DNA of 52,974 bases from a virus. Lineage: Duplodnaviria > Caudoviricetes. The translations under genes were made by a program, and so were the position numbers. How positions within the stretch are numbered: the first letter of the stretch is position 1; each line of letters opens with the position of its first letter. Location: the IMG/VR virus record IMGVR_UViG_3300032073_000043, positions 1 to 52,974 of that record; one strand, written 5' to 3'. Under the pieces are notes generated by a model. The model did not search any database. It had not been told where the DNA came from and saw only the letters and a program-made list of their open reading frames with translations. Below are positions 29,880 through 50,834 of this stretch, piece by piece.

Positions 29880-30154
29880 TATTTAGATCTTCTTTCTGCA
29901 AAACCACCAAAAGTAGACTTTTCCTCTTCCTTTTTAGGTTTATTATCTAACATGTCTTGCTCATCTTGTATTCTATTTAATATCTCAAAAGCATCAAATA
30001 TAGCTAGCTTTTTAGTTGCAGCCGCGTTTTTTAATCTATCAGCTGATATATCGTCGTCTGTTTCTACTATAGGCTCTTTTGCAACCTTTATTAATTCATC
30101 AACAGCTCTATGTCCAGCTTGGATTATATTCTTTTTCGTTTCCTTGATATTCAT
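29879..30154 (-). CDS. Probable terminase small subunit
   Basis: Small helical ORF (likely start MNIKETKK at 30154) translationally coupled to terL. Confidence 0.55.
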   Translation of the reverse strand: MNIKETKKNIIQAGHRAVDELIKVAKEPIVETDDDISADRLKNAAATKKLAIFDAFEILNRIQDEQDMLDNKPKKEEEKSTFGGFAERRSK

Positions 30155-30692
30155 ATTTGATTGTAATAAATTTAGATAAAACCCTATATAATCTCTCACC
30201 GTTAATTACAAACTCGTATTCACTATTAGGTGTGAAACCTATTAAATCTCCTTCGTTTATATTTAAATGCTTGTTAGTATATTTAACAACGCCTATCAAT
30301 GGTTTTTCTTTATCGTCATATATATTGTCTGACTGTAAAGGTTTTACAAAGCAATAATCAGTTTGACTTGACCATTTACCTTTTTGTTTGTATAAAAATA
30401 TTTGATCTGTATTAACAAAATATTTATCTTCTTTAAAATAAGATCTGCTGTTTTTTTCTACACCTTGTTGATCGTGCCATCTTCTAAAAACATTGTGGTG
30501 TATAATAACAGTGTCACCTACTTTTATATCTGTTTTAACAATTTTAGGCAAAGAAACAACTATAGCTTCTCTGTTAACGTACTGATGACTAAATATCTCG
30601 GCGTTTAATATGAGCTCTTTATCACCTATTTTTTTTACGTTATTGTATCTTGATCCTTTTGGTTTAACTACAAAGTTAAATAATCCTTGCAT
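30108..30692 (-). CDS. GroES-fold-like protein (apparently two tandem units)
   Basis: Two similar units, FVVKP...IKVGDTVII and CFVKP...INEGDLIGF, resemble co-chaperonin beta-barrels. Confidence 0.55.
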   Translation of the reverse strand: MQGLFNFVVKPKGSRYNNVKKIGDKELILNAEIFSHQYVNREAIVVSLPKIVKTDIKVGDTVIIHHNVFRRWHDQQGVEKNSRSYFKEDKYFVNTDQIFLYKQKGKWSSQTDYCFVKPLQSDNIYDDKEKPLIGVVKYTNKHLNINEGDLIGFTPNSEYEFVINGERLYRVLSKFITIKYEYQGNEKEYNPSWT

Positions 30693-31204: not shown

Positions 31205-32104
31205 TTACTTCTTTTTTGCTGGTGAAGATATGTACCAGTTTTTGTATCTATCTCTTTTTTCACACACGTAGCTAATATATTTATCAACTTTAGTTTTCCA
31301 GTCTTTATCTACGTTTGGATTTATTATACCAGACTTGTAACTAGAAAATGTCTTGTTTACGTATTCTACTATGTTTTTTTGATTGTGATAAAGGAAACTA
31401 TTTATGCAGTAGAATGAGCCTCTCTGTATATCGTTCCAAACATCCACAGGTTCTATATTTTTACCTAATACACCAGCAAACAAAGGGCTTTCACTTATAT
31501 GAGTTGAATAAACGCCTTTAGCTTTCTGCATGTAGTAGTACATGTCTACATTTTTAGGAAGAATATTCTCTTCACCAAAAAAGTCTTTTAACTCACCAAT
31601 TATTTGGTGTGTAGTTATAGGGTGTGGTTTGAATAAAACATTATTACCGTGGGTGTTTACAATGTGCTTTAATCTATTTAAGCAAACATTTTCTCTAAGT
31701 TTGTTAGAACCCGGTAAAATTATTAAATAGTCCTTAGGAGGAAATCTGTCCAATTCTTCTTTTCTGTATTTATACTTGTTAGCGTTGCTATCAACAACTT
31801 TTTTTACTAACCAAGAAGAATAGTCTAGCACTTCACTTTCGTTATCGTGCCAAGCGTCGATCATTTGTTCGTTACGCATTTTAAAATTTAAAGGTTGAAG
31901 GTAAAAATTACCTGCATACTCGGTATACGCCATTGTTTTAAAGTATGGCATTTCTTCTGCCATTACATCATAGCTAGTTTCTAAGCCATTTTCTTGGCAC
32001 TTTCTAATGACATATCCTTCAACTTGTTCTAAGTCATAAAGACTGTCAGCTTTTTTAAGAGGACCTATTCTTTTCTTAAGCTCCTGCTCGTTAAACATTT
32101 CCAT
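31205..32104 (-). CDS. Glycosyltransferase-like protein (GT-B, KpsS/KpsC- or sialyltransferase-like HP motif)
   Basis: YLIILPG, VLFKPHP and GVYSTHISES..AGVLGK resemble the C-terminal domain of CMP-sugar-dependent transferases. Confidence 0.55.
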   Translation of the reverse strand: MEMFNEQELKKRIGPLKKADSLYDLEQVEGYVIRKCQENGLETSYDVMAEEMPYFKTMAYTEYAGNFYLQPLNFKMRNEQMIDAWHDNESEVLDYSSWLVKKVVDSNANKYKYRKEELDRFPPKDYLIILPGSNKLRENVCLNRLKHIVNTHGNNVLFKPHPITTHQIIGELKDFFGEENILPKNVDMYYYMQKAKGVYSTHISESPLFAGVLGKNIEPVDVWNDIQRGSFYCINSFLYHNQKNIVEYVNKTFSSYKSGIINPNVDKDWKTKVDKYISYVCEKRDRYKNWYISSPAKKK

Positions 32105-32160: not shown

Positions 32161-34302
32161 CTACTCGTTATTATCTTGAAACGGATTAGTACCTAATTGC
32201 CCAAATTGATTAAAGTTAACATAGTTACCAGTGTTAGTTGTATACGTAGTCGTATACGTAGTTGTTGTATTAAAACCAGTGCTTGTAGCTGTAGACGTAT
32301 TAAAAACTGTTGACGTTGATGTGTTATAAACAGTAACGTGATTTGTATTAGTTGTAGTACTTGTGTTAAAAGTAGTAGTCGTGTTAAACGTAGTTACTGT
32401 AGCTGTAGTAGTGTTGTAAACAGTACTTGTCGATCTAGTTGTTGCTGTATTTGTACTAGTGTTATAAACTGTTGTTGTCGCTCTAGTTGTTGCTGTGTTT
32501 GTAGACGTGTTAAAAGCTGTTATAGTTATTGTTTGCGTTGTTGTAGATGTATTGTAAACAGTTGTATAAACAGTAGTCGTATCTCTTGCTGTACTTTTTA
32601 GAACTGTGTTTCTAGATGTACTAACAGTTGTGTTTCTAGATGTAGTAGTGCTAGTATTATAAGTTGTTGTATAAGTAGTGTTTGTACTAAATACAGTTGA
32701 TGTACTAGTATTAAACACAGTACTAGTTGCTCTACTTGTAGATACAACCGTTGTTGTACTAGTATTATAATGAGTTATTGTTATAGTACTAGTTGATCTA
32801 GTTGTATTTCTATACGTAGCGGCTTGAACATCAGTTAACCTCATTGTTTGTTGAGACGTAGTGTATACTGTATTAGTACTAGTATTAAACGTAGTTGTTG
32901 TGGATTTACTGGTATTAAAAGTTGTAGTCGTACTGTACGTAGTTAAAGTAGACGTATTATAAACTGTAGTAGTTGCTCTAGACGTTGATATTGTAGTTGC
33001 TCTACTAGTTAATGTAGCAGTACTAGTATTAAAAGTAGTACTTGTTGTGTATACCGTAGTTGTAGATCTAGATTCTATTGTAGCTCTACTAGTTGCAAAT
33101 GTAGTTACAGTTGATCTAGTGGTAGACACAGTAGTGGTTCTTTGTTCTGTTGTTACCGTGCTAGTATTAAAAGTGGTTGTAGTAGAGTATGCTGTTGTTG
33201 TAGCTCTTTGCTCTGTTGTTGATCTACTTGTAGCAAAAGTAGTCGTTGTCGAGAATACTGTAGTTGTGCTAGTGTTAAACACAGTTATAGTAGCTGTACT
33301 AGTGTTAAAAGCTGTGTTAGTAGTATATGTCGTAGTGGTAGACCTTGAGGTTGCTGTACTTCTAGTTGTAGTAAATGTTGTTGTAGTTGACTTACTAGTT
33401 ATAGTACTTGTGTTAAATGTTGTGCTAGTAGTGTATACTGTTACTGTACTTCTTTGCTCAATTGTAGCTCTTGATGTAGCAAAGGTAGTTGTAGTTGACT
33501 TAGTAGTTACAGTTGATGTATTGAAAGCCGTATTAGTAGTATATACCGTGGTTGTACTTCTAGATTCAATTGTAACTCTATCCGTAGCGAAAGTAGTAGT
33601 TGTAGCTCTAGACGTTAGCGTCGAAGTATTAAAAGCAGTTGTAGTCGTAAACGTCGTAGTAGTAGACCTACTTTCTATAGTGTTTCTGCTAGTAGCAAAA
33701 GTAGTAGTTGTAGCTCTAGTAGTATTAAATGTTGTTGTTGTTGTATACAGTGTAGTAGTACTAAACGCGGTAATTGTATTACGGCTAGTTGCTATTACTG
33801 TTGCTCTACTCGTTGATGTAGTTCTACTAGTAGCAAAAGTTGTTGTAGTAGCTCTAGATGTGGCAAACGTAGTTGTAGTAGACCTAGTAGTGTTAAATGT
33901 AGTTGTTGTATTAAATACAGTCGTGGTACTAGTATTAAATAATGTAGTTGTACTTTTACTAGTATTAAACGTAGTTAAAGTTGTGTAGGTAGTGGTAGTA
34001 GACCTACTTTCAGTTGTAGCTCTAGACGTATTAAAAGTAGTAGTCGTAGTATACGTAGTCGTAGTAGATCTACTTTCAGTCGTAGCTCTAGACGTATTAA
34101 ACGTCGTAGCTGTAGTGTATGTAGTAGTAGTATTTCTAGACTCAAGTGTGCTTCTACTTGTAGAAAAATAAGAAATATAAGTAGTGTTAAAAGACGTTGT
34201 AGTGTTTCTACTTTCAGCGGTGCTTCTTGACGTACCTCTACTCGTGTTTCTTATAGTAGATTGTGATGTGCTTCTTGATGTGCTTCTTGTAGTATTAGGC
34301 AT
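32161..34302 (-). CDS. Thr-rich repeat fibre protein A (713 aa)
   Basis: Almost entirely T/S/N with F/Y and R/K spaced 4/6/8/10 residues apart. No Pro in the repeat region. Confidence 0.85.
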   Translation of the reverse strand: MPNTTRSTSRSTSQSTIRNTSRGTSRSTAESRNTTTSFNTTYISYFSTSRSTLESRNTTTTYTTATTFNTSRATTESRSTTTTYTTTTTFNTSRATTESRSTTTTYTTLTTFNTSKSTTTLFNTSTTTVFNTTTTFNTTRSTTTTFATSRATTTTFATSRTTSTSRATVIATSRNTITAFSTTTLYTTTTTFNTTRATTTTFATSRNTIESRSTTTTFTTTTAFNTSTLTSRATTTTFATDRVTIESRSTTTVYTTNTAFNTSTVTTKSTTTTFATSRATIEQRSTVTVYTTSTTFNTSTITSKSTTTTFTTTRSTATSRSTTTTYTTNTAFNTSTATITVFNTSTTTVFSTTTTFATSRSTTEQRATTTAYSTTTTFNTSTVTTEQRTTTVSTTRSTVTTFATSRATIESRSTTTVYTTSTTFNTSTATLTSRATTISTSRATTTVYNTSTLTTYSTTTTFNTSKSTTTTFNTSTNTVYTTSQQTMRLTDVQAATYRNTTRSTSTITITHYNTSTTTVVSTSRATSTVFNTSTSTVFSTNTTYTTTYNTSTTTSRNTTVSTSRNTVLKSTARDTTTVYTTVYNTSTTTQTITITAFNTSTNTATTRATTTVYNTSTNTATTRSTSTVYNTTTATVTTFNTTTTFNTSTTTNTNHVTVYNTSTSTVFNTSTATSTGFNTTTTYTTTYTTNTGNYVNFNQFGQLGTNPFQDNNE

Positions 34303-34304
34303 AG

Positions 34305-34868
34305 TTAAGTTATTATATCGCCAGATATTTGTATTAGTAATTTACCATCTGTCTTTAAGTTATTAATATAATTATTTCTTAACGCTGTCTTATGATCGTC
34401 AGATACATCGTTTGGTTCTGCAAAAATATCTACCAATATTAAATCATATAGCTTTGTTGTTGAGTAAGTCCACTCGTCATGTGTTATTACATTTATATCA
34501 CTATGCATCCAGTTTACAATAGAAACTATCTCAGAGTCTTGTTCAACAACGTCCACACTTGTTGGTGATTTAGTATTTTTTACATATTCAGGAAAAGAAC
34601 CTAAACCAAGTCCTAATATTAAAACATCACCCCAAACTGCATTATCAAAAATACTGTTATCAAAACCACAACTATTACAATCACCTGCTTTTATTTTAGC
34701 AGTATACAAAGAGTTATAATATCTATGGTAAACATCAGATTTATATTTTAAATGTGACATCACAAATTGTGTTGTACCATCTTCTACAGAGGTTTTAGTT
34801 TCTTTTATTATTTCAAATTTAGTACCATCGTGGGTACTTATTAGGTTTTCGTTTATATATGCACTCAT
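34305..34868 (-). CDS. Class I SAM-dependent methyltransferase fold (spermidine-synthase-like)
   Basis: Motifs VLILGLGLG, VDVVEQD, YDLILVDIF and LKTDGKLL. Confidence 0.8.
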   Translation of the reverse strand: MSAYINENLISTHDGTKFEIIKETKTSVEDGTTQFVMSHLKYKSDVYHRYYNSLYTAKIKAGDCNSCGFDNSIFDNAVWGDVLILGLGLGSFPEYVKNTKSPTSVDVVEQDSEIVSIVNWMHSDINVITHDEWTYSTTKLYDLILVDIFAEPNDVSDDHKTALRNNYINNLKTDGKLLIQISGDIIT

Positions 34869-37480
34869 GATTTAATTGTTTTAAATTCTACATCTAACAT
34901 ACTATAGTCAACCCACTTACTGTTTCTGTGGTTTAGTACAGCTCCATCAATATGTTCAACTTCATCAGCCATAACACCTTGCCATACACCAGCAAATTTA
35001 TCAGCATATATACCTTTTTTAAATTCAAAGCTATATATATTTATACCTTTATTAGATTTGCCTATTAACTTAATATGTTTTTTCAATTTTCTGTCTGAAG
35101 GAAAACCACCACCACCGCCACATGAGGTAGGAGCTCCCGCAACCTGACCACCACTGATTATTTTATATTTATGTGTTGGACTAAATGCAATAGCATCTTG
35201 AGCTCCATACCATGCTCCAGCCAATGCTGATGTACCAGCAGAGTTTGTATACACATAGCTATTTGCTTGGGGTAATCCACTAGAAACGTTTGTTCCATAA
35301 TATGTAGCTCCCATAAACGCATTACACGCACCATTAAAATTACTTGCAGCTGTTGAGCTAAAAGCCGTAACGCTAGCCGCTGTGTTAAACGTTGTTATAT
35401 ACGTTGTGTTAAATGTTGTTGTATATGTTGTAGCGTAAGTTGTGTTAAACGATGTTGTAGTATTGTAAGCTGTTGTTGTTGACTTGCTAGTTCCTCTAGT
35501 TGTTGATATACCAGTTGTAAACGTAGTTGTAGTGCTATAAGTTGTAGTTGTACTTCTACTTTCAGTTGTGTTTCTACTAGTGTTAAACGTCGTGGTAGTT
35601 GTATAAGTAGTCGTAGTAGATCTGCTCTCTGTTGTTGCTCTACTTGTATTAAATGTAGTTGTTGTCGTATATGTTGTCGTTGTACTCCTAGATTCAGTAG
35701 TGTTTCTTGAAGTAGCAAATGTAGTAGTTGTTGATCTACTAGTTGCTATTGTAGTTACCCTAGATGTTGATGTTGATCTAGATGTAGCAAACGTTGTAGT
35801 TGTTGATCTAGTAGTGTTAAACGTAGTCGTCGTGCTTCTACTAGTGTTAAACGTAGTAGATGTATTAAATACAGTTATAGTAGATGTGTTAAACGCGGTA
35901 GTTGTTGATCTACTTGTTGTTGTGCTTCTACTTTCAGCTGTTGATCTACTTGTAGCAAAAGTAGTTGTTGTAGTTGTACTAGTGTTAAATACTGTGTTTG
36001 TTGTGTATGTTGTAGTTGTAGATCTATTTGTTGTAGTTGTTCTAGACGTAGCAATAGTAGTTGTAAATATAGTAGTTGTTGATTTACTAGTATTAAACAC
36101 TGTGATAGTTGCATAAACTGTATTTGTTGTTCTACTCTCTGTGGTATTTTTTGATGTCGCAAATGTTGTTGTAAAAGCGGTAGTCGTAGTTTTAGTAGTA
36201 TTAAAAACAGTACTAGTGGAATATGCGGTTGTCGTACTTCTAGATTCTGTAGTGTTTCTACTAGTGGCAAATGTAGTTGTGTATACGGTTGTAGTAGTTC
36301 TAGATGTATTAAATACTGTCGTAGTAGCAAACACTGTAGTTGTACTTCGACTTTCAGTAGTATTTCTTGACGTTGCAAAAGTTGTCGTAGTTGATCTACT
36401 AGTTGATATAGTAGTAGCTCTACTTGTTGTAGTTGCTTTACTAGTGTTGAAAGTAGTAGTCGTAGTATAAACAGTTGTAGTAGACCTTTGCTCTATTGTT
36501 GCTCTAGACGTGTTAAAAGTTGTTGTCGTTGAATAAACTGTAGTAGTACTGGTGTTGAATGTTGTTGTTGTACTTTTAGTAGTATTAAAAACAGTAGTAG
36601 TAGAATACGCGGTAGTAGTGTTTCTTGATTCAGTAGTATTTCTGCTCGTTGCAAAAGTTGTTGTAGTACTAAATATAGTTGTTGTAGACGTATTAAATAC
36701 TGTAGTTGTACTTTTACTAGTGCTAACTGTTGTATTTCTACTTTCTAAAGTTGTTTTACTAGTAGCGAAAGTTGTTGTTGTGCTTCTGCTAGTGCTAATA
36801 GTTGTATTTCTATTAGTAGTTGTACTAGTGTTGTATATAGTAGCTGTTGATTTTAACGTATTTCCTAAAAACGTGTTGTATGTAGTTGTGTAAGTAGTAG
36901 TAGTGTTTCTAGCCGTATCTACAGTTGTAACAGTAGATGTATTAAAAGTAGTAGTAGTATTTCTACTAGTGCTAACAACTGTACTTCTTGATGTAGATGT
37001 GGTTTTAACCGTTACGGTAGACGTATTAAACGCTGTGTTAAAAGAAGTTAACGTACTAGTATTAAAAGTTGTAGTCGTGCTAGTATTAAATACAGTTATA
37101 GTAATTGTTGACGTTATTGTCGACGTATTGTAATTTGTAGTATAAACTGTAGTTGTATTTCTACTAGTTGCAATTGTAGTTGATGTTAAAAAAGTAGTAG
37201 TAGTATTTTTACTTGTTGAAACAACTGTTGATGTAGAAAATGTTGTTGTTGTAGATCTATTAGTAGATATAGTAGTGTTTGTACTTCTACTAGTAGCTGT
37301 AGCTCTAGAAGTGCTGTAAGCAGTAGTTGTAGACTTAACTGTTGTTGTACTAGTATTATAAGCTGTTGTTGTACTAGTGTTATACGTAGTAGTCGTACTC
37401 TTACTGGTTCCTGTAGATTTTGTTGTTGATCTACTGGTTGACTTACTGAAAAAATTAATTTTACTCCAGAGAAAGTTCAT
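34865..37480 (-). CDS. Thr-rich repeat fibre protein B (871 aa) with C-terminal intramolecular chaperone (peptidase S74)
   Basis: About 690 aa of Thr-rich repeats, then a small Cys-flanked domain and a GGGGG linker. Ends with SDRKLKKHI...GVMADEV...VDYSML, the S74 autocleavage signature. Confidence 0.85.
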   Translation of the reverse strand: MNFLWSKINFFSKSTSRSTTKSTGTSKSTTTTYNTSTTTAYNTSTTTVKSTTTAYSTSRATATSRSTNTTISTNRSTTTTFSTSTVVSTSKNTTTTFLTSTTIATSRNTTTVYTTNYNTSTITSTITITVFNTSTTTTFNTSTLTSFNTAFNTSTVTVKTTSTSRSTVVSTSRNTTTTFNTSTVTTVDTARNTTTTYTTTYNTFLGNTLKSTATIYNTSTTTNRNTTISTSRSTTTTFATSKTTLESRNTTVSTSKSTTTVFNTSTTTIFSTTTTFATSRNTTESRNTTTAYSTTTVFNTTKSTTTTFNTSTTTVYSTTTTFNTSRATIEQRSTTTVYTTTTTFNTSKATTTSRATTISTSRSTTTTFATSRNTTESRSTTTVFATTTVFNTSRTTTTVYTTTFATSRNTTESRSTTTAYSTSTVFNTTKTTTTAFTTTFATSKNTTESRTTNTVYATITVFNTSKSTTTIFTTTIATSRTTTTNRSTTTTYTTNTVFNTSTTTTTTFATSRSTAESRSTTTSRSTTTAFNTSTITVFNTSTTFNTSRSTTTTFNTTRSTTTTFATSRSTSTSRVTTIATSRSTTTTFATSRNTTESRSTTTTYTTTTTFNTSRATTESRSTTTTYTTTTTFNTSRNTTESRSTTTTYSTTTTFTTGISTTRGTSKSTTTAYNTTTSFNTTYATTYTTTFNTTYITTFNTAASVTAFSSTAASNFNGACNAFMGATYYGTNVSSGLPQANSYVYTNSAGTSALAGAWYGAQDAIAFSPTHKYKIISGGQVAGAPTSCGGGGGFPSDRKLKKHIKLIGKSNKGINIYSFEFKKGIYADKFAGVWQGVMADEVEHIDGAVLNHRNSKWVDYSMLDVEFKTIKS

Positions 37481-37489
37481 ACGCTAATT

Positions 37490-37927
37490 TTATTGTGGGT
37501 ATGAGGAGAAACCTGATACGTAGTTAACTAATACTTTTGTGGATGAAACTATAAAATAAGTCATTACAGCTATTGTTTGGCTACCTGATCCAAATGTTAT
37601 AGCGCTTCCACCTGGTGTGTAAGCTGTACTTGGTAAAGCCGGACTGTCCCAACTAATAAAATTTGTAGATACTATATTGGGGTTATTTATTATAATAGTA
37701 CCAGACTGACCAACATTACCACTAATGTTTGAAAAACTAATACTGTGATCAACAAATGATTCATTAACAACTGTGCATATATAATAATTAGCATCATCAC
37801 TAAAGTCAATAGCAAAAACACCACTACTGTGAGTTATTGATTTTGAACCTTGCCTTTGAAAACTAAAGTCTCCGTCTATAGTAAGACTGCCTTTTATTCC
37901 AACGTCAGATAGAATTGGTATTGCCAT
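37490..37927 (-). CDS. Small tail-fibre-related protein
   Basis: Beta-rich, and shares the N-terminus MAIPIL with the upstream fibre protein. Confidence 0.6.
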   Translation of the reverse strand: MAIPILSDVGIKGSLTIDGDFSFQRQGSKSITHSSGVFAIDFSDDANYYICTVVNESFVDHSISFSNISGNVGQSGTIIINNPNIVSTNFISWDSPALPSTAYTPGGSAITFGSGSQTIAVMTYFIVSSTKVLVNYVSGFSSYPQ

Positions 37928-37988: not shown

Positions 37989-40028
37989 TTAAGATGTTGG
38001 ATACGTTATACCTGTTGCAGTTGCAGCGTTTTCTTTACTGTGTATTTGAACAGTTACATCATACTCAGGAACTTTTGCAAATTGCACTAAAATGTGGTTA
38101 TCACTGTCTGTGCCACTAGTATCTGAGTTTGTAGTCCAATCAATTATAACTTGTCGATAATCTGCAGCAGCACCTTTATATTGAGCCGTTACCTGTAGTG
38201 CTTTAGTACCTAAATCATGTTGTATTACAGCGTTTAGTTGAGTAGCATGTAGAGATGAAACATCAATAACTTGAACAACATTTTTAGCTTGAGCTAATCT
38301 AAGAGGTGTTACAACTTTTGTATTATCAGAACCTGTTTGTACCTCAGCAACTGAAGCTACAGATCTTTGAGTGTTGTTTGTTGTTATTGAACCACCTAAT
38401 GAAATAGCAGAACCATCTATTGTTATAGCAGAGTTTGCTAATTTAGCATTTTCAATTGTAGCATCTGCAATGTGAGCGTTGTCAATAGAACCATCTGTAT
38501 AATGTTCTGAATCAATTGCGTTATCAGCAATTTTAGCTTTAGTTACAGCATCAGCGTTTATTTTAGCAGTAGTTACCGCGTTAGAATCAATTTGTCCCGC
38601 AGCTACAGTGCCTAATAATGCTAATGCACCTAAAGCTGTTCCGTTAAGAGTTATTGCGTCAGCTTCTAAAGTTCCATCAACATCAACGTTTCCAGATATA
38701 TCTAATGAAGCAGCGATTAACTGATCAACTTGTAAGTCTTCATAACTTGATCCAAGTTTTAATTCAAACTTAGGTCCTGTTGTACTGTATGTAAATGTTG
38801 CATCATCTCCAGAACCACCTTCAAGTGTAATACCAGCGCCGTTAACAACAGCTGCTGTACTGTTTCCACTATCAAGTACTATATTGTGATCGTTAAGACT
38901 TACTGTGGTTGAATTTACAGTTGTAGTAGTACCTGAAACTTGTAAGTTACCAGTTATTACTATTGTATCACCACTATCAGTACCTATAACTATATTTTCA
39001 TCAGCAGCACCACTTGCAGATTGTAACGCAGCTAATCTGGTTAATAAGTTAGCGTTAGATACATCTACGTCACTATTAGTTGTATAAGATGGAGTACCAA
39101 ATGTACCATCATGTTTTAAGAACTCTCCGTTTGATCCAGCAGCTGGTACAAAGTTATTATTACCAGTTCCAACTAAAGTTCTTATTTCTGCAGCTGTTTG
39201 ATCTGTAGTTGCACCATCTTCATAACCGAGTGCCGTTGCCATTTCAGCTTGTGTTATTCCACTCTTTAAAGTTGGCGTTCCACTATTGTCATAAATAGCA
39301 GCATTACCAGAATCACCAGAAACATTTACTTGTGCACCATCAGCTACATTAAGTATTGCTAATGCTTCAGCTTTTGATAAAGCTTTTGGAACACCAGCGC
39401 TAGCAGCAGTTCTACCTATGAAAGTATCTGTAGCTATATTAGCTAGCTTAGCCATTGTTATATTAGCATCAGCTATTTTAGCTGTAGTAACATTTGCATC
39501 AACTATACTAGCTGTAACAACAGCGTCTGAAGCTAAGTTATCAGCATCAACCGCATCATCAGCAAGCATTGAGTGAACAATATCACCAGCTCCAATTACA
39601 AAGTCTAAGTTGCCATTTGTATCGTCATAAGATACAGATATACCAGTTTCAGTACCATCAAGCATTCCACCAACATAGTCTTCAACTTGTTCTTGTGTTA
39701 ATGTGCTGTTAGCTGATATTGTAACTACACCACCAACTTCTGCTAGTGTAACGCCAGATCCTTTTTTAAGAACTAAGTTTTCTGATGTTTCTAATGTGTT
39801 GTTTACAGATCCATCACCGTTAGTGTCTATCTGCACTGTTCTAGTACCACCGCCAGAAGCTAGTGATAACCATGCAGATCCATTATACACTTTTACCGTG
39901 CCTGAATCATAAATAATTTGCCCCGTACCAGGCGACGTGACATCACCAGAACCAGTTGTGTGGAGCAGTACGTTTTGAATTTCGGCTGCATTGCCGAAGT
40001 CCATGTGATTTAAAATAGGTATTGCCAT
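37989..40028 (-). CDS. Tail fibre protein
   Basis: VTTAKIADA-type repeats, a GNLQVSGTTTTVNST motif and a T4 gp34-like EVQTGSDNTKVVTPLRL motif. Confidence 0.8.
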   Translation of the reverse strand: MAIPILNHMDFGNAAEIQNVLLHTTGSGDVTSPGTGQIIYDSGTVKVYNGSAWLSLASGGGTRTVQIDTNGDGSVNNTLETSENLVLKKGSGVTLAEVGGVVTISANSTLTQEQVEDYVGGMLDGTETGISVSYDDTNGNLDFVIGAGDIVHSMLADDAVDADNLASDAVVTASIVDANVTTAKIADANITMAKLANIATDTFIGRTAASAGVPKALSKAEALAILNVADGAQVNVSGDSGNAAIYDNSGTPTLKSGITQAEMATALGYEDGATTDQTAAEIRTLVGTGNNNFVPAAGSNGEFLKHDGTFGTPSYTTNSDVDVSNANLLTRLAALQSASGAADENIVIGTDSGDTIVITGNLQVSGTTTTVNSTTVSLNDHNIVLDSGNSTAAVVNGAGITLEGGSGDDATFTYSTTGPKFELKLGSSYEDLQVDQLIAASLDISGNVDVDGTLEADAITLNGTALGALALLGTVAAGQIDSNAVTTAKINADAVTKAKIADNAIDSEHYTDGSIDNAHIADATIENAKLANSAITIDGSAISLGGSITTNNTQRSVASVAEVQTGSDNTKVVTPLRLAQAKNVVQVIDVSSLHATQLNAVIQHDLGTKALQVTAQYKGAAADYRQVIIDWTTNSDTSGTDSDNHILVQFAKVPEYDVTVQIHSKENAATATGITYPTS

Positions 40029-40422: not shown

Positions 40423-40821
40423 TTATTTCTTTTTTAGTTTTTCAAAACTTCGTCCACCGAAATAAGCACCTATAACGGTGATTAAAACAAGCTGTAGAAG
40501 ATCTGTCCATTTTTGTTCTACATTAAAACCAATTGCTCCACTATCGATAAAAACTAACAATACTGTAGAAACAATTAAAAATATAAGTACCAACGGTCTC
40601 ACTGATCTAGTTAGCCAGTTACCGTGTTGTAAATCAGCCTGCCATCGATCAGTTACATTTTTCTGCATCTCAGCTTCAGCTTTTATCATTATCTCAGTCA
40701 TCTCTTTTTCAAACTGAGCTTTTTCTTCTTTAGTTTGTATAAACTTATCGGCAACGCCTGATAATTTTTCTAATATACTTCCACCGGCTCCGCCGAATAA
40801 TTTAGCTAATAACTTACTCAT
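40423..40821 (-). CDS. Holin (GTA 3TM holin-like)
   Basis: WLTRSVRPLVLIF, TM helices and GAYFGGRSFEK with a basic C-terminus. Confidence 0.8.
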   Translation of the reverse strand: MSKLLAKLFGGAGGSILEKLSGVADKFIQTKEEKAQFEKEMTEIMIKAEAEMQKNVTDRWQADLQHGNWLTRSVRPLVLIFLIVSTVLLVFIDSGAIGFNVEQKWTDLLQLVLITVIGAYFGGRSFEKLKKK

Positions 40822-45068: not shown

Positions 45069-45322
45069 TCTACTAAAACTACATCTTGTATTTTTATAAC
45101 TTGCAATAGTTTATTTTTCCAGTGTATACCGTGTCCAGCGTGTTTATCATAGTATATAATGCTATTGTCATTAATACCCTCGACTAAGTTACCTTTTGTT
45201 ACAACTTTTGCTTTTATATACCTATTGTCACTGTCTGTTTTTTCTGTTAAAATTAAACCAGCAACTTTCTTAGGCTTTTCTTTGATCTTTTCTACTACTA
45301 TGTAATAATTAACTGCTTGCAT
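45065..45322 (-). CDS. groES: Co-chaperonin GroES
   Basis: YIVVE..., AGLILT mobile loop, AKVVTKG and IKIQDVV. Overlaps the groEL stop. Confidence 0.85.
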   Translation of the reverse strand: MQAVNYYIVVEKIKEKPKKVAGLILTEKTDSDNRYIKAKVVTKGNLVEGINDNSIIYYDKHAGHGIHWKNKLLQVIKIQDVVLVE

Positions 45323-46880
45323 TTGGTATTCTTATATTAGAGATTACACAATCTGCAGAAATTATAGTAGAAACAACACTAACTGCATTCTTTAGTGCTG
45401 TCTTTGTGACTAAGACTGGGTCTATTATGCCACTTTTTATCATATCAACCTCTTTTCCGGTTGTTACATCTATACCATACCCTATTTTTGTAGGAGTTTT
45501 TATTAAAACTATACCAGCATTGTCTAAAATAGTTTTAAAAGGTGCTAAAATAGCAGTTTTTAGTATTTTTTCGCCAGTATTATCTGGTTTTATTGAATTA
45601 GCAGCGTTTAATAGTGCTATTCCACCTCCAGAAACAATACCTTCTTGTAATGCAGCCTTAACTGCATAGATAGCATCTTCAACTCTATCCTTTTTTTCCT
45701 TTAATTCTACTTTAGAATCAGCACCTACGTTAATTATACCAACAGAACCGCTTAACATAGCTAATCTGTCTTGTAATCTTTTCTTAAAATAAGGTTTTTT
45801 CTCTTTTTTAATCTTATTTTTAACATCTTTTATCCTTTCTTCGAGGTCTACCGCTTTTAAACCAGTTGTAAGGACTGTAGTTCTGTTATCTGTGACAGAT
45901 TTTACTACTTCACCCAAACAATCTGGCTGGATCAGATCTAAATCGTCTCCAAGCTCTTCGTTCATAACTTGCGCTCCAGTTAAAAATGCTAAATCTTCTA
46001 TTGTATCTGCTTTACTAGGGCCAAAACCAGGTGGATCTATGATATTAACATTGATATTACCCTTAACTTTGTTCATTAGTAACGCTGATTTGACCTGTTG
46101 GTCAACCTCTGCTATAATAAGTAGAGGTTTTCTTTTCTTTATAACATATTCTAATACACTTTGTATCTTTCTTATGTTAGGTATAGGTGATGAAACTATT
46201 AAAACCGCTGGGTTTTCTAGTTCTGACACCATTTTATCTTTATTTGTAGCAAAGTGAGGTGATGTTAAGCTACTATCGAACTGTACACCCTCTACTATCT
46301 CTGTGTAGGTTTCATCGCTTTCGCTCTCCTCCATCAGCACTACACCGTCCTTACCTACTTTTTTGTAAGCTTCTGCAATAATTTGCCCCAAAGCTTTGTC
46401 ATTGTTGCAGCTAATTGCTGAAACGCTTGTAAGCTGATCGCCAGATACTGCTTTGCTGTGTTCTGAAAGGTATTCCACAACCTTTTTATATCCTGTTTCA
46501 ATGCCATGTTTTATATCTCTTATACTATCGTTAGACTTTACTTGTGAGTTGACCTCTTTTAATAGTGATTCAGCAAGGACGATAGCCGTAGTGGTACCGT
46601 CACCTGCTTCCTTCACTGTGTTTTTCGATGCTTCTTTAATAAGTGTTGCACCTATATTTTCTACAGGATCCATTAGTACTACTGAATCAGCTACAGTTAC
46701 ACCATCTTTAGTTATAACTGGTCTGCCTAATCCATCTTCGTATACTACGCACTTACCTGAGGCACCTAGAGTAGATTTAACAGCTTTCGCTAGTTTATCT
46801 ACACCATTCATAATTTTTGATTTAGCTTCATCACCAAAGTAAAGATCTTTGACAATTTCGCTAGGTTGATTAAATTCCAT
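45309..46880 (-). CDS. groEL: Chaperonin GroEL
   Basis: AVKSTLG, VITKDGVTVA, EAGDGTTTA, EKKDRVEDA and GIIDP motifs. Lacks the GGM tail. Confidence 0.97.
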   Translation of the reverse strand: MEFNQPSEIVKDLYFGDEAKSKIMNGVDKLAKAVKSTLGASGKCVVYEDGLGRPVITKDGVTVADSVVLMDPVENIGATLIKEASKNTVKEAGDGTTTAIVLAESLLKEVNSQVKSNDSIRDIKHGIETGYKKVVEYLSEHSKAVSGDQLTSVSAISCNNDKALGQIIAEAYKKVGKDGVVLMEESESDETYTEIVEGVQFDSSLTSPHFATNKDKMVSELENPAVLIVSSPIPNIRKIQSVLEYVIKKRKPLLIIAEVDQQVKSALLMNKVKGNINVNIIDPPGFGPSKADTIEDLAFLTGAQVMNEELGDDLDLIQPDCLGEVVKSVTDNRTTVLTTGLKAVDLEERIKDVKNKIKKEKKPYFKKRLQDRLAMLSGSVGIINVGADSKVELKEKKDRVEDAIYAVKAALQEGIVSGGGIALLNAANSIKPDNTGEKILKTAILAPFKTILDNAGIVLIKTPTKIGYGIDVTTGKEVDMIKSGIIDPVLVTKTALKNAVSVVSTIISADCVISNIRIPNASS

Positions 46881-47972: not shown

Positions 47973-48200
47973 ATGAGTAATTTAATCACTAAAAGATTTG
48001 TTGTAAGACAATCACTAATCGGAAAAAATGTAACATTCGAATTCACTAACAAAAAAGGTGACAAGATAATTTACAATCACGACAAAGTATTTTCAATAAT
48101 GAAAGATACACTAACTAACTTACCATGTTGGTTAAAGTACAAGTCGTACACTGCTACTAATAACATTCCGTTAATAGTAAGAGGTAAAGAGTTAGTATAA
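47973..48200 (+). CDS. Early hypothetical protein
   Basis: 75 aa, with a TAATAACT-ATG leader behind motif copy 1. Confidence 0.7.
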   Translation: MSNLITKRFVVRQSLIGKNVTFEFTNKKGDKIIYNHDKVFSIMKDTLTNLPCWLKYKSYTATNNIPLIVRGKELV

Positions 48201-48257
48201 CTTTAACTTCACTGTGAGTTCCACTTGTTTCTAACAGTATAAATTGCGAACAAGTAA

Positions 48258-48298
48258 AGACATAATGGTTAACGTGAGTTCGATTCTCACCATGTCTA
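48258..48298 (+). ncRNA. tRNA-like minihelix (acceptor-like stem plus T-arm only)
   Basis: AGACAT...GTGAG-TTCGATT-CTCAC-C-ATGTCT-A; no D or anticodon arm. Confidence 0.5.
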
Positions 48299-48346
48299 CT
48301 AACTAAGGTAACAGAGTGTTATCAGTAACTAATTAAATATAATAAT

Positions 48347-48466
48347 ATGGCACATAGAAATACATATCTACTAAAAATCTCTTTCAGATTATACAAAAAG
48401 CATTGGAATGAACTAACTTATGATGAGCGAGCTCACGTAACTGATATCTACTATGACTTCTACTAA
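48347..48466 (+). CDS. Small early protein (39 aa, not in ORF track)
   Basis: MAHRNTYLLKISFRLYKKHWNELTYDERAHVTDIYYDFY with an AT-rich leader. Confidence 0.55.
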   Translation: MAHRNTYLLKISFRLYKKHWNELTYDERAHVTDIYYDFY

Positions 48467-48497
48467 CAAACTAAATACGACAACTAATCGATAATAT
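48466..48497 (+). promoter_or_regulatory. Early promoter-like motif, copy 2
   Basis: ACAAACTAAATACGA-CAACTAAT-CGATAATAT. Confidence 0.75.
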
Positions 48498-48518
48498 AAA
48501 CGTAATAAATAAATAACT

Positions 48519-48713
48519 ATGAGTAAAATTAAATTCGTACAGAATAAAGTGTACAACTATGTAAAAGGTAAATCAGTAACAGAACTAGCTTTTGAGCTAT
48601 TAGCCTTCGGAGTATTAATGCCAATGGCGGTTTCAGGAATACTATTCATGATAGTAGGTTTACTAACAGGTGAGATCGATGCTTCTAATGCTAACTTCGG
48701 AATATATAACTAA
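48519..48713 (+). CDS. Small early membrane protein
   Basis: 64 aa with a long hydrophobic segment. Confidence 0.65.
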   Translation: MSKIKFVQNKVYNYVKGKSVTELAFELLAFGVLMPMAVSGILFMIVGLLTGEIDASNANFGIYN

Positions 48714-49876: not shown

Positions 49877-49879
49877 TAT
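49848..49879 (+). promoter_or_regulatory. Early promoter-like motif, copy 4
   Basis: ACAAAACAAATACGA-AAATAGCA-CGATAATAT. Confidence 0.75.
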
Positions 49880-49885
49880 ATTTGT

Positions 49886-50098: not shown

Positions 50099-50111
50099 TA
50101 AATATAAAACT

Positions 50112-50740: not shown

Positions 50741-50743
50741 AAT

Positions 50744-50829: not shown

Positions 50830-50834
50830 CTAAC

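What the first reader, a model, noticed from the sequence alone, without database searches (positions are those of the whole stretch)
32161..37480. Two Thr-rich proteins are 'reverse complements' of each other: an aromatic-to-Arg/Lys pairing code over ~690 residues
SEEN: I indexed protein A (32161..34302, 713 aa) and protein B (34865..37480, 871 aa) by hand; both indices close on the stated lengths. In each, F/Y and R/K sit on one alternating face of a Thr/Ser strand at aperiodic spacings of 4/6/8/10. Aligned antiparallel at i+j=704, every R/K in A6-488 faces an F/Y of B, and every R/K in B216-698 faces an F/Y of A. That gives 80 pairs, e.g. R6:F698, R10:Y694, F38:K666, F130:R574, R174:F530, K304:Y400, Y480:R224, R488:Y216. 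There are no aromatic:aromatic or basic:basic oppositions; the exceptions are Q14:F690, F46:I658 and six F:T. After an irregular patch, 8 more pairs follow at i+j=703 (R502:Y201 to R564:F139), then 11 more at 704 (R573:F131 to Y687:R17), about 99 pairs in total. The repeat regions have no Pro and almost no Gly. This is not a DNA inverted repeat: both genes are on the same strand and their antisense frames are Val-rich. KNOWN: cross-strand cation-pi pairs stabilise antiparallel sheets, Thr favours beta structure, and S74 chaperones drive trimerisation of phage fibres. INFERENCE: A and B zip into a continuous antiparallel hetero-filament, possibly A3B3, about 230 nm long at ~0.33 nm per residue. 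The aperiodic spacing would act as a barcode fixing one register, like base pairing. I know of no described system like this.
Basis: partly seen in the sequence, partly recalled or inferred. Interest (0 to 1): 0.97.

Follow-up and report, generated by a model that had tools for sequence, protein, structure and literature searches.

The report
Two phage proteins that zip antiparallel
Two threonine-rich proteins of a marine phage carry matching "barcodes" of aromatic and positively charged residues that fit only when the chains lie head-to-tail, which points to a previously undescribed kind of very long two-stranded protein fibre.

Summary
A (32161..34302, minus strand, 713 aa) against reversed B (34865..37480, minus strand, 871 aa) gives 92 aromatic:basic oppositions and 1 same-class clash at i+j=704. 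The next offset gives 36 and shuffles reach at most 32. Allowing two one-residue register slips gives 99 pairs and 0 clashes over 690 residues. No DNA inverted repeat explains it.

The same relation holds in every related two-gene locus examined in IMG/VR: 16 distinct pairs, then 19 more loci. Paired spans range from about 190 to 1,380 residues and agree within 0-3 residues in the first 16. The cognate partner is best in 16 of 16 rows, and class flips mostly occur in both chains.

In 24 of 40 further loci a single gene is self-complementary about a central loop or small tip domain. Two of these loci were inspected, and in both the gene sits in the same genomic slot. A and B are therefore best read as the two arms of a split giant beta-hairpin shaft of a tail fibre, zipped by cross-strand cation-pi rungs.

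Stoichiometry (A3B3?) and length (about 230 nm?) remain untested. Structure tools gave nothing. I found no described equivalent.

The parts
34865..37480 (-). Gene B, 871 aa: first arm of the duplex plus distal domains
   Evidence: ORF listing. Conserved in related loci.
37442..37480 (-). B residues 1-13 (MNFLWSKINFFSK): conserved unpaired head, lying next to the C-terminal tail of A in the duplex
   Evidence: M1, L4, W5, I8 and F10 are invariant in 6 homologues. The paired span starts at B14. Coordinates.
35372..37441 (-). B residues 14-703: Thr-rich strand that pairs antiparallel with A1-690
35099..35371 (-). B residues 704-794: conserved non-repeat distal domain, with invariant Cys719 and Cys787 and a GGGG run before the S74-like part
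   Evidence: Alignments A2 and A4. No Pfam or PDB sequence match.
34868..35098 (-). B residues 795-871: Peptidase_S74-like intramolecular chaperone domain, beginning SDRKLKK
   Evidence: Pfam PF13884 at E=0.0038, 17.9 bits, below the cut-off of 22. 6 of 7 homologous C-termini match at E<=0.1, best 1.2e-5. The Ser and Lys of SDRxxK are invariant.
34305..34868 (-). 187-aa ORF between B and A: weak SAM-methyltransferase-like protein, conserved in this position in one group of related loci
   Evidence: phrog_15480 methyltransferase at E=1.1e-4. Pfam NodS at E=0.012, below cut-off. 69% identical homologue in the same position in L002.
32161..34302 (-). Gene A, 713 aa: second arm of the duplex
   Evidence: ORF listing. 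Conserved in related loci.
32233..34302 (-). A residues 1-690: Thr-rich strand that pairs antiparallel with B14-703 (99 aromatic:basic rungs)
32164..32232 (-). A residues 691-713 (TGNYVNFNQFGQLGTNPFQDNNE): conserved unpaired tail next to the head of B
   Evidence: G701, Q702, L703, G704, P707 and F708 are invariant in 6 homologues. Coordinates.
32599..32823 (-). A residues 494-568: segment paired at register 703 instead of 704 (partner B135-209, window 36854..37078)
   Evidence: The same one-residue slip occurs in L002.
32800..32853 (-). A residues 484-501 (QQTMRLTDVQAATYRNTT): conserved non-repeat patch where the register slips. It faces B199-215 (TTYNTFLGNTLKSTATI, window 36836..36886). Possible bulge or hinge.
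37490..37927 (-). 145-aa ORF just upstream of B. It is homologous to the C-terminal domain of the large tail-fibre protein that precedes the Thr-rich gene(s) in other loci.
   Evidence: BLASTP against the L145 1337-aa protein: 34% identity over 97 aa, E=4e-13.
37989..40028 (-). 679-aa tail-fibre protein upstream
   Evidence: phrog_892 tail fiber protein at E=4.7e-14.
31205..32104 (-). 299-aa conserved protein just downstream of A. It was used as the anchor to find related loci.
   Evidence: phrog_26179 at E=9.4e-34. 58 related loci found. 38% identical homologue downstream of the single-gene version in L145.

Best explanation
A and B are the two arms of a split giant beta-hairpin that forms the shaft of a tail-fibre-like appendage. 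The phage is a marine podovirus of Flavobacteriia with crAss-type structural genes.

Each chain is one nearly uninterrupted beta strand of about 690 residues. The two strands lie antiparallel and in register. The N-terminus of A sits beside the end of B's repeat, next to B's distal domain. The C-terminal tail of A sits beside the N-terminal head of B.

On one face of the ribbon, every R/K (H in some relatives) sits directly opposite F/Y/W of the other chain. These cross-strand cation-pi 'rungs' occur every 4-10 residues, with Thr:Thr pairs between them. The other face carries only small residues (T, S, N, A, V).

The order and spacing of rungs are aperiodic. Only one register, and only the cognate partner, satisfies all rungs. 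The pattern therefore works as a barcode that sets register, length and partner choice for two otherwise low-complexity strands.

Shown here: the complementarity, its statistics, its conservation, its co-evolution, and the existence of single-chain versions.
Inferred: beta conformation (from even spacing, Thr richness and the absence of Pro and Gly), cation-pi contacts, incorporation into the virion, and trimerisation through B's S74-like domain to give A3B3. Also inferred is a length of roughly 180-230 nm, using the textbook 0.33 nm rise per residue; the lower figure comes from a recalled beta-barrel geometry formula for tilted strands and was not computed in any call.
For: 1. Window pair.
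- 92:1 at a single offset, against at most 32 in five kinds of shuffle.
- 99 rungs and 0 clashes with two one-residue slips.

2. Conservation in the first set of loci.
- All 21 loci that held two Thr/Ser-rich ORFs upstream of the anchor gene show one dominant antiparallel register.
- These reduce to 17 distinct pairs plus the window. Each has 0-1 same-class pairs. Paired spans run from 189 to 1378-1380 aa.

3. Matched lengths.
- Paired spans of A and B differ by 0-3 residues in 16 of 16 duplexes.
- L002 has A 525 aa and B 684 aa, that is 188 and 187 residues shorter than the window's, and its register is 516 = 704-188.
- Tandem arrays of the same period face each other in the window duplex (residue positions worked out by hand from the call's coordinates):
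  - 66 nt: A58-119 against B595-661.
  - 108 nt: A233-314 against B368-490.
  - 30 nt: A131-158 against B540-570.

4. Specificity.
- The cognate B is the best partner for 16 of 16 A proteins.
- The cognate A is the best partner for 15 of 16 B proteins.
- Cognate mean score 68, non-cognate mean 16.

5. Co-evolution.
- Aromatic/basic class flips occur in both chains 29 times and in one chain only 9 times, over 11 non-independent comparisons.
- 0 same-class clashes in 17 comparisons.

6. Rule across 16 duplexes.
- 1304 of 1376 R/K (95%) face F/Y/W.
- L058 uses His: 27 pairs counting R/K, 65 when H is added.

7. Beta signature.
- Same-strand landmark spacings are 4 (1036 cases), 6 (1153), 8 (317) and 10 (401), against 2 (18).
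- Each duplex holds 0-4 Pro and 0-2 Cys.

8. Single-chain versions.
- 24 of 40 loci with one complete Thr-rich ORF (22 distinct sequences) are self-complementary about their own centre. They show 33-140 pairs, against shuffle maxima of 15-38.
- Gapped totals over the 22 sequences are 1486 rungs and 5 clashes.
- The centre is a short loop in some, such as Y-TENTS-R in L077 and YYTRSGNQNR in L157. In L165 and L086 it is a 65-75-aa insert.
- In L145 and L165 the single gene lies between the same upstream fibre gene and downstream 299-aa-type gene as B-MTase-A. For L145 this is backed by BLASTP at E=1e-75 and 4e-13.

9. A further 19 two-gene loci found by a motif scan total 1639 rungs and 6 clashes.

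10. Context. The genes sit in a tail-fibre module. An S74-like domain is found at the C-terminus of B in 6 of 7 homologues.
Against: - No structure supports any of this. The ESM Atlas model of A alone is unconfident (pLDDT 0.40, pTM 0.23). That neither supports nor excludes a fold that needs the partner.
- Virion incorporation and expression are unknown.
- Rung-by-rung compensation is modest. In 17 comparisons there were 0-3 strict swaps each and 0-10 one-sided losses each.
- About 20% of the partners of aromatic residues are Thr (391 of 1931), and 5% of R/K are unpaired.
- Co-location of indels measured from independent pairwise alignments is only moderate: phi 0.31-0.48 in 5 of 8 comparisons and 0.04-0.19 in 3. 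Gap placement in repeats is ambiguous.
- L105 has hairpin-type termini but shows no clear self-complementarity (9 pairs).
- The window's own S74 match is below Pfam's cut-off, and single-gene versions have no S74 domain, so trimerisation is not general.
- A free two-stranded ribbon hundreds of residues long has no structural precedent that I know of (recalled).
- The related loci were found with an anchor gene and with a family motif, so they are one family, not independent inventions.
Confidence: 0.75

Rival explanations
1. The pairing is real but transient. A is a dedicated template or chaperone ('molecular ruler') that holds B's strand in register during folding and is absent from the mature fibre.
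For: Phage fibres often need dedicated assembly factors (general knowledge). B carries an S74-like chaperone domain. A methyltransferase-like gene sits between the two genes. A GroEL gene is in the window. Nothing here shows that A is in the virion.
Against: Single-gene versions place both arms in one polypeptide, so there the second arm cannot leave. A keeps conserved termini of its own. A co-varies with B over spans from about 190 to 1,380 residues, which is costly for a disposable factor.
Confidence: 0.08
2. The pairing is real, but the duplex is not an extended ribbon. The two-stranded unit folds or coils into a compact higher-order beta structure, such as a solenoid or sandwich of the hairpin. 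The object would then be far shorter than about 200 nm.
For: No structure is available. Very long free ribbons are unprecedented (recalled). Both faces are polar, and the small-residue face (T 31%, S 29.5%, N 17%) could pack against itself.
Against: - There is no regular period. Tandem arrays have periods of 4-36 aa with only 1.9-4.8 copies each.
- Parallel self-identity never exceeds 37.5% at any shift, close to the roughly 35% seen at other shifts and between A and B.
- Turn formers are nearly absent: 3 Pro+Gly in A1-690.
- No clean second register appears. Every other offset scoring at least 26 carries 11-28 same-class clashes.
Confidence: 0.07
3. Each protein folds on its own, as a homotrimeric triple beta-helix or a beta-solenoid. 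The A/B complementarity would then be a by-product of shared palindromic repeat modules.
For: Some modules are individually self-complementary, for example F4R6R6Y6 (22 aa). A against reversed A and B against reversed B give secondary peaks of 38 and 44. B has an S74-like domain, which is typical of homotrimeric fibres.
Against: - Shuffling module order destroys the signal: 20.9 +/- 1.7 against 92.
- Non-cognate partners built from the same modules score 16 on average, against 68 for cognate partners.
- Lengths and indels are matched between the two genes.
- No mechanism other than mutual contact would keep the module order mirrored.
- The Atlas model of A alone is unconfident.
Confidence: 0.05
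4. The pattern is an artefact of composition, of ORF calling in a low-complexity region, or of a DNA-level inverted or mirror repeat.
For: Thr-rich coding DNA creates long spurious ORFs on the other strand (Val-rich ORFs).
Against: - There are no significant inverted repeats.
- In-frame antisense of Thr codons cannot give Thr (genetic code).
- Both ORFs are conserved with intact frames, conserved starts and conserved ends across dozens of contigs.
- Shuffles that keep composition and parity give at most 28.
Confidence: 0.01

Closest known systems
Tryptophan-zipper and designed cation-pi beta-hairpins (12-16-residue peptides)
   Same: An antiparallel two-stranded structure without a hydrophobic core. 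It is stabilised by cross-strand side-chain pairs that all lie on one face, at every second position. This rests on recalled knowledge. I saw only search listings and abstract starts of PMC12271999 and PMC2705519.
   Different: - Those are single peptides of about a dozen residues with 2 Trp:Trp pairs.
- Here there are 20-187 aromatic:cationic rungs over about 135-1,380 residues per arm.
- The structure is natural, is encoded either in one gene or split into two, and has an aperiodic pattern that selects register and partner.
Trp-Arg layered ('CWR') fold of thrombospondin type-1 repeats, and the WSXWS ladder of cytokine receptors
   Same: Antiparallel strands held by alternating aromatic and Arg side chains from different strands (start of the abstract of PMC2173040, seen in the listing).
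   Different: - TSRs are about 60-residue, three-stranded, disulfide-capped domains with contiguous stacked layers.
- Here there are no Cys in the repeat.
- Rungs are isolated, 4-10 residues apart, and separated by Thr:Thr pairs.
- The system has two strands and is up to about 1,380 residues long.
Trimeric phage fibres and spikes with a C-terminal Peptidase_S74 intramolecular chaperone (endosialidases, T5 pb1)
   Same: B ends in an S74-like domain with the SDxxxK motif and lies in a tail-fibre module. T5 pb1 is described as a trimer in passages of PMC12750041.
   Different: Known S74 fibres are homotrimers of parallel chains (triple beta-helix or coiled coil; recalled). None has a second, separately encoded chain running antiparallel along the whole shaft.
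Register- and partner-specifying codes in other fibrous proteins: heterodimeric coiled coils, and charge-pair registers of collagen heterotrimers
   Same: Simple pairwise side-chain rules along a periodic backbone decide partner and register (recalled knowledge, no call).
   Different: Those are alpha-helical or polyproline-II, parallel or short. They use charge:charge or hydrophobic pairs. This one is a beta duplex, antiparallel, with an aromatic:cation code, and it evolves by matched indels.
'Rope' fibres of podophages A1002, GP4 and VP1
   Same: A podovirus fibre built from more than one gene product, in which an extended polypeptide is bound by beta-sheet augmentation (passages of PMC13730344).
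   Different: There a rope protein threads through a chain of globular fibre dimers. There is no residue-by-residue complementarity between two long strands.
Thr-rich flat beta surfaces of insect antifreeze beta-solenoids (TxT arrays)
   Same: Ranks of Thr on a flat beta surface (recalled). The rung face here is 62% Thr.
   Different: Antifreeze proteins are single-chain solenoids with a strict 12-15-residue period and disulfides. Here there is no period and no Cys, and the structure is a two-chain duplex. Ice or glycan binding is pure speculation.

Membership tests
Peptidase_S74 (intramolecular chaperone) tail fibre or spike | C-terminal domain matches Pfam PF13884 above its gathering score | tested here: inconclusive
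   The window's B scores 17.9 bits (E=0.0038), or 16 bits on a longer piece, against a cut-off of 22. 6 of 7 homologous C-termini match at E<=0.1, best 1.2e-5. The whole protein gave no hit.
Peptidase_S74 (intramolecular chaperone) tail fibre or spike | Conserved Ser...Lys of the S-D-x-x-x-K cleavage motif (the motif's role is recalled) | tested here: met
   The Ser (B795), Arg and Lys of SDRKLKK are invariant in 7 sequences.
Peptidase_S74 (intramolecular chaperone) tail fibre or spike | Homotrimer whose chaperone is cleaved off after folding | not testable with these tools
   Structure prediction failed and was then switched off.
Cross-strand-zippered beta-hairpin (trpzip / cation-pi hairpin type) | Interacting residues at every second position, all on one face | tested here: met
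   Landmark spacings are overwhelmingly even: 4, 6, 8 and 10 account for 2907 cases, against 18 at spacing 2. All 80 rungs in A6-488 are at even positions.
Cross-strand-zippered beta-hairpin (trpzip / cation-pi hairpin type) | Antiparallel complementarity of the two arms around a turn within one chain | tested here: met
   Met in relatives: 22 distinct single-gene proteins are self-complementary about a central loop. In the window the two arms are separate genes, so there is no turn.
Cross-strand-zippered beta-hairpin (trpzip / cation-pi hairpin type) | Experimentally or computationally confirmed hairpin geometry | not testable with these tools
   No model could be obtained.
Thrombospondin type-1 repeat (W-R layered fold) | WxxW plus RxR motifs with capping disulfides in a roughly 60-aa domain | tested here: not met
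   No Cys in the window's repeat, and 0-2 Cys per duplex elsewhere. Rungs are 4-10 residues apart. No Pfam hit.
Beta-solenoid / antifreeze-like TxT repeat protein | One regular coil-length period along the protein | tested here: not met
   Tandem arrays have periods of 12-108 nt with only 1.9-4.8 copies each. The best parallel self-identity is 37.5%, against a background of about 35%. Rung spacings are mixed: 4 x18, 6 x51, 8 x15, 10 x8.
Collagen-like or mucin-like (disordered) phage fibre segment | Gly-X-Y repeats, or a Pro/Ser/Thr-rich linker without positional order | tested here: not met
   Gly counts are 2 in A1-690 and 4 in B14-703; Pro counts are 1 and 0. The strict period-2 order and the inter-chain complementarity are not expected of a disordered linker.
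Crassvirales-type / Flavobacteriia podovirus structural module (context only) | Hallmark structural genes near the locus | tested here: met
   - crAss muzzle C-terminal domain, 36.1 bits against a cut-off of 27.
- TerL, portal and virion protein PHROGs at E<=1e-104.
- Capsid-type protein 46-48% identical to proteins of Flavobacterium phages, Maribacter phage Panino and an unclassified Caudoviricetes record; Cellulophaga phages are among the 85 records matched.

The most novel reading that the evidence does not exclude
Nature has a protein counterpart of a nucleic-acid duplex: a two-letter side-chain code (aromatic opposite cation) written on one face of Thr-rich beta strands.

The code lets two strands of about 135 to about 1,380 residues find one partner and one register, and zip into a two-stranded ribbon tens to hundreds of nanometres long. 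The two 'strands' can be one gene (a hairpin) or two genes. They evolve, as paired nucleic-acid stems do, by compensatory changes and matched insertions.

This would be a new fibrous protein architecture and a natural, programmable beta-sheet pairing code.
Probability: 0.6. Interest if true: 0.95.

Novelty: categorically new. Interest (0 to 1): 0.92.

Why it matters
If the duplex is real, it adds a fibrous architecture to the short known list (coiled coil, collagen, triple beta-helix/spiral, cross-beta). This one has no hydrophobic core and gets its specificity from an explicit residue-by-residue code.

It would explain how a phage can make a thin appendage whose length is set simply by gene length. 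Paired spans among the relatives found here range from about 135 residues (a truncated gene) to about 1,380.

It also offers a rare natural data set for studying co-evolution of two chains. There are dozens of cognate pairs, plus single-chain forms, and all of their contacts are predictable from sequence.

The rule (aromatic opposite R/K/H, Thr elsewhere, spacing of at least 4) is simple enough to test with peptides. It could be used for register-specific beta-sheet heterodimers and protein nanowires.

For phage biology it flags an unstudied host-recognition organelle in abundant marine Flavobacteriia phages.

Tried and rejected
Structure and complex prediction
- Complex prediction with A1-110 x3 plus B594-703 x3 and 6-row alignments scored 0.00 in both runs. 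The tool's verdict was 'no answer', and the controls were not run. This is neither evidence for nor against binding. The job also differed from the tool's calibration, which used pairs of single chains.
- Structure prediction on B's C-terminal domain (alignment A4) failed through job interruption.
- ESM Atlas: the model of A alone is unconfident. The L073 sequence is not held. L094 is held but has no model.

Sequence searches that found nothing
- Pfam and PHROGs on whole A and whole B.
- PHROGs on five single-gene Thr-rich proteins and one further B-like protein of a two-gene locus (L118).
- PDB sequence search with A, with B's C-terminus, and with the A4 profile. The only returns were chance hits at E>=1.
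- GenBank phage collection by megablast of the locus.
- GenBank phage collection by tblastn with A and with B's C-terminus. The low-complexity filter is on in that search.
- The search for homologous proteins with A: none at E<=1e-10. This is probably HMMER's composition correction, so it is no evidence of rarity.
- Genome-contig scan with the 299-aa anchor: none.

Other negative checks
- The cultured relative Maribacter phage Panino has the same head-module gene order (structural protein, portal, TerL) and also encodes a GroEL. None of the eight ORFs I translated beyond its TerL is Thr-rich.
- I considered a second pairing register, which a closed A3B3 barrel or a wound ribbon would need. No clean second peak exists. 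Offsets 702 and 706 are merely free of landmark contacts, which follows from the minimum spacing of 4.
- I considered that the small-residue face proves a buried trimer core. I rejected this as a proof. The two faces of a two-stranded antiparallel ribbon are intrinsically different (hydrogen-bonded versus non-hydrogen-bonded pair sites; recalled), so the asymmetry needs no core.

Literature
- Seven searches (plus passages read) found no description of such a pair. The library lacks most subscription journals, and supplements are closed.

Full report
WHAT IS THERE

The window is a 52,974-bp IMG/VR virus record. Evidence for what kind of phage it is:
- TerL, portal and virion-protein PHROGs at E<=1e-104.
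- A crAss-type muzzle domain above Pfam's cut-off.
- A capsid-type protein 46-48% identical to proteins of Flavobacterium phages (vB_FspP_elemo group), Maribacter phage Panino and an unclassified Caudoviricetes record. Cellulophaga phages are among the 85 records matched.

On the minus strand the gene order is as follows:
- A 679-aa tail-fibre protein.
- A 145-aa ORF.
- B (34865..37480, 871 aa).
- A 187-aa methyltransferase-like ORF (34305..34868).
- A (32161..34302, 713 aa).
- A conserved 299-aa protein.

A and B are the only Thr/Ser-rich ORFs in the window.

CHECKING THE OBSERVATION

I scored aromatic (F/Y/W) against basic (R/K) oppositions at every offset of A against reversed B.
- There is one sharp peak at i+j=704, with 92 oppositions and 1 same-class pair.
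- The runner-up offset has 36:13.
- A against reversed A peaks at 38, B against reversed B at 44, and parallel A/B at 29.

One thousand shuffles of each kind, taking the best offset each time, gave the following:
- Residue shuffle: 19.2 +/- 1.4.
- Parity-preserving shuffle: 21.6 +/- 1.5.
- Module-order shuffle: 20.9 +/- 1.7. The maximum is 32 when only A is shuffled.
- Spacing shuffle: 22.2 +/- 2.2.
- Label shuffle with spacings kept: 46.8 +/- 4.7.

Both the spacing pattern and the order of labels therefore carry the signal.

A gapped antiparallel alignment gives 99 rungs, no same-class pair and 25 unpaired landmarks. The registers are 704 (A1-493), 703 (A494-568) and 704 (A570-690).

There is no DNA inverted repeat of note between the genes. 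In-frame antisense of Thr codons cannot encode Thr, so the relation exists only at the protein level.

ANATOMY OF THE DUPLEX

Landmarks sit on one face.
- In A6-488 and its partners, that face is T 284, R 68, F 60, Y 28, E 20, K 12.
- The other face is T 169, S 142, N 58, A 52, V 27, I 15.
- Over 16 duplexes the faces are T 62% / Y 8.5 / K 7 / F 6.9 / R 5.9 / W 2.6, against T 31% / S 29.5 / N 17 / A 5.8 / V 5.4.

Each rung has a typical context: T/V-[aromatic]-N on one chain and S-[basic]-S/N/A on the other. This produces the many N:S pairs on the back face (47 in the window).

Other features:
- Rung spacings in the window are 4 (18), 6 (51), 8 (15) and 10 (8).
- Over all duplexes, same-strand landmarks are almost never 2 apart: 18 cases against 2907 at 4-10.
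- The paired region of the window has net charge +35 (A) and +42 (B).
- A conserved non-repeat patch marks the register slip: A484-501 facing B199-215.
- The unpaired ends are conserved: B1-13 and A691-713 lie together at one end.
- At the other end, B continues into a conserved 91-aa domain and a 77-aa S74-like domain.

RELATED LOCI

I used the 187-aa and 299-aa neighbours as anchors and fetched 60 IMG/VR loci. Twenty-one of them hold two Thr/Ser-rich ORFs upstream of the anchor, and every one has a single dominant antiparallel register. After removing identical pairs, 17 remain besides the window.

Gapped alignments of these give 16-161 R/K rungs and 0-1 same-class pairs. Examples at the single dominant offset:
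- L002: A 525 / B 684 aa, register 516, score 59:2.
- L024: 1425 / 1424 aa, 143:2.
- L048: 1661 / >=1302 aa, 148:0.
- L045: 410 / 354 aa, 44:0.

L058 looked weak (27:3) until His was counted as basic, which gives 65:3.

I dropped L044 (a truncated copy of the L045 type) and L054 (91% identical to L020). Among the remaining 16 pairs:
- Paired spans of the two chains agree within 0-3 residues in all 16.
- The cognate B is the best partner for 16 of 16 A proteins.
- The cognate A is the best partner for 15 of 16 B proteins. The exception is L058 scored without His.
- The cognate mean is 68 and the non-cognate mean is 16.
- Of 1376 R/K in paired regions, 1304 face an aromatic residue.
- Aromatic residues face K/R 1304 times, T 391, H 50, Q 48 and S 48.

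CO-EVOLUTION

I mapped rungs between phages with independent pairwise alignments of A and of B.
- Most rungs are conserved in close pairs: 78 of 82 between L020 and L054.
- There were no same-class clashes in 17 comparisons.
- Strict swaps numbered only 0-3 per comparison, and one-sided losses 0-10.

Counting every aromatic/basic class flip at aligned duplex positions gives 29 flips in both chains against 9 in one chain only. This is over 11 overlapping comparisons, so the events are not independent.

Most divergence is by gain and loss of modules.
- The window has about 206 (A) and 208 (B) residues that L002 lacks.
- The inserted runs roughly coincide in duplex coordinates. Against L014, for example, the runs are A58-73, 80-85 and 143-150, and B's (in partner coordinates) are 61-76, 83-88 and 144-149.
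- The overall association is moderate, because gaps in repeats are ambiguous. Phi is 0.31-0.48 in 5 of 8 comparisons and 0.04-0.19 in 3.
- At the DNA level, arrays of 66, 108 and 30 nt in A lie opposite arrays of the same period in B.

SINGLE-GENE VERSIONS

I scanned IMG/VR with a degenerate pattern for the family motif.

Two-gene loci:
- Nineteen loci hold two Thr-rich ORFs.
- Together they give 1639 rungs and 6 same-class pairs.
- They include a new layout with the two genes adjacent and no methyltransferase, for example L118 with 1042 / 1211 aa and 187:1.
- L085 and L144 repeat contigs already seen.
- L163, whose B is cut to 259 aa, gives only 20 rungs.

One-gene loci:
- Forty loci hold exactly one complete Thr-rich ORF of at least 400 aa.
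- Twenty-four of these (22 distinct sequences) are self-complementary about their own centre. They show 33-140 pairs at i+j close to their length, against module-shuffle maxima of 15-38.
- Gapped totals are 1486 rungs and 5 clashes.
- The other 16 mostly start like A (MPNT...) or like B (MRWLWNRIDF), and their partner presumably lies outside the fetched stretch.
- L105 has hairpin-type termini but only 9 self pairs. That is unexplained.

The centres of the self-complementary proteins are of two kinds:
- Short loops, such as Y-TENTS-R in L077, YYTRSGNQNR in L157, and a Gly/Pro loop in L073.
- In L165 and L086, an inserted stretch of 65-75 residues.

In L145 and L165 the single gene lies exactly where B-MTase-A lies in the window. 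Upstream is a large fibre protein whose C-terminus matches the window's 145-aa ORF. Downstream is a homologue of the 299-aa protein. For L145 the matches are E=4e-13 with 34% identity, and E=1e-75 with 38% identity.

The simplest reading is a chain that folds back on itself. An antiparallel homodimer cannot be excluded from sequence. The window's A and B are then the two arms of the same structure encoded separately. B's distal domains occupy the position of the hairpin tip.

HOW IT MOST LIKELY WORKS

Shown: two chains (or two halves of one chain) carry mirror-image, class-inverted landmark patterns. These patterns are specific to each phage and co-vary in length and content.

Inferred, with the basis for each step:
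- The chains are beta strands. The basis is strict period 2, 58-69% Thr+Ser, and almost no Pro or Gly.
- They are hydrogen-bonded antiparallel, so that residues i and 704-i point to the same face.
- The aromatic:cation pairs make cross-strand cation-pi contacts, as in designed hairpins (recalled knowledge).
- The aperiodic order makes out-of-register or non-cognate pairing costly. Shifts of 4-10 residues create 16-30 same-class clashes in the window.
- B's S74-like domain suggests trimerisation at the distal end, and hence A3B3. This is weak: the match is below cut-off in the window and absent from single-gene forms.
- At the textbook 0.33 nm per residue, the window's duplex would be about 230 nm if straight, and less if the strands are tilted in a closed six-stranded arrangement (recalled barrel geometry, not computed in any call). 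None of this geometry could be tested.

Function is inferred from context only. The best guess is a long, thin, strongly cationic shaft that holds a small distal domain far from a podovirus tail, as a host-searching fibre.

WHAT FAILED

The one complex prediction gave 'no answer'. Single-chain structure prediction failed and was then switched off. The Atlas gave only an unconfident model of A. Family, PDB and GenBank-phage searches with A and B were empty. The cultured relative Panino lacks the genes.

COMPARISON WITH WHAT IS KNOWN

The chemistry (cross-strand aromatic or cation-pi pairs on one face of a hairpin) is that of trpzip-type peptides. It also recalls the W-R layers of thrombospondin repeats (listing and abstract starts only: PMC12271999, PMC2705519, PMC2173040). 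The setting is that of S74-chaperoned phage fibres.

The following features have no counterpart that I could find in seven literature searches (passages read):
- A separately encoded, full-length antiparallel partner strand.
- Scale: paired spans of about 135 to about 1,380 residues.
- The barcode.
- Evolution by matched indels.
- Interconversion between one-gene and two-gene forms.

The library omits most subscription journals, and supplements were closed, so a description in print elsewhere cannot be excluded.

VERDICT

- The core interpretation, antiparallel A:B pairing with a register-fixing code, is strongly supported by comparative evidence. It is not yet supported by any structure.
- Stoichiometry, length and function remain open.
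- I rate it categorically new and of very high interest.

Noticed in passing
L063-L179, e.g. L157:2974-8316 (+), L073:4363-5661 (+), L145:5156-7432 (-), L165:1358-3226 (-): Single-gene Thr-rich proteins of 433-1781 aa are self-complementary about a central loop or a 65-75-aa insert. They look like giant one-chain hairpins. Many start MAIYVNDSGT... and end ...FWDGSQWSEN.
   Followed up: yes
L026:6744-7796 (+) and the C-termini of B-like proteins in L024, L026, L029, L030 and L058: In loci where A and B are equal in length, B ends in GGGGCxRGC(I/Q). The gene between B and A is a 350-aa methyltransferase-like protein fused to a weak Hint/intein-like domain (Pfam E=0.005-0.02, below cut-off). This could be a processing or ligation step at the tip of the duplex. 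It is untested.
   Followed up: partly
L058 (A 513 aa, B 435 aa); also L026, L029, L030: Some relatives write the 'basic' letter of the code as His (YNTSH, TSHSTTTTY). L058 goes from 27 to 65 pairs when H is counted. Gln also faces aromatic residues 48 times over 16 duplexes.
   Followed up: partly
window 45309..46880 (-) and 30108..30692 (-): The phage encodes a GroEL-type chaperonin (Pfam Cpn60_TCP1, E=5.6e-56). The 194-aa ORF sits where Maribacter phage Panino has a gene annotated co-chaperonin GroES, but Pfam did not confirm Cpn10 for the window's ORF. The two ORFs bracket the fibre module.
   Followed up: partly
window 4103..11296 (-) and 13538..19777 (-): Two giant ORFs of 2397 and 2079 aa. 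The second carries a crAss muzzle C-terminal domain (36.1 bits, cut-off 27) and matches phrog_14478. The first matches nothing in Pfam or PHROGs.
   Followed up: no
window 33047..33988 (+), 35700..36116 (+), 36141..36470 (+), 36552..36893 (+): Long Val-rich ORFs lie on the strand opposite A and B. They are by-products of the ACN-rich coding strand, not genes.
   Followed up: partly
window 40423..40821 (-): A 132-aa protein matches Pfam GTA_holin_3TM (E=2.1e-6, above cut-off). It lies just upstream of the tail-fibre genes.
   Followed up: no
L105:4610-6181 (+): A 524-aa Thr-rich protein has hairpin-type termini (MTGIYVNDNG...YWDGTQWTES) but only 9 self-complementary pairs at the best offset. 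It may use another code or many register slips.
   Followed up: no
window 32161..37480: The paired regions are strongly cationic: net +35 in A and +42 in B. The rung face is a two-rank array of Thr interrupted by rungs. Whether the shaft itself binds anionic glycans (or ice) is speculation.
   Followed up: no
window 48001..52974: AT skew and GC skew change sign near 48 kb, and the ORFs there switch to the plus strand. This marks a boundary between the structural module and another module.
   Followed up: no
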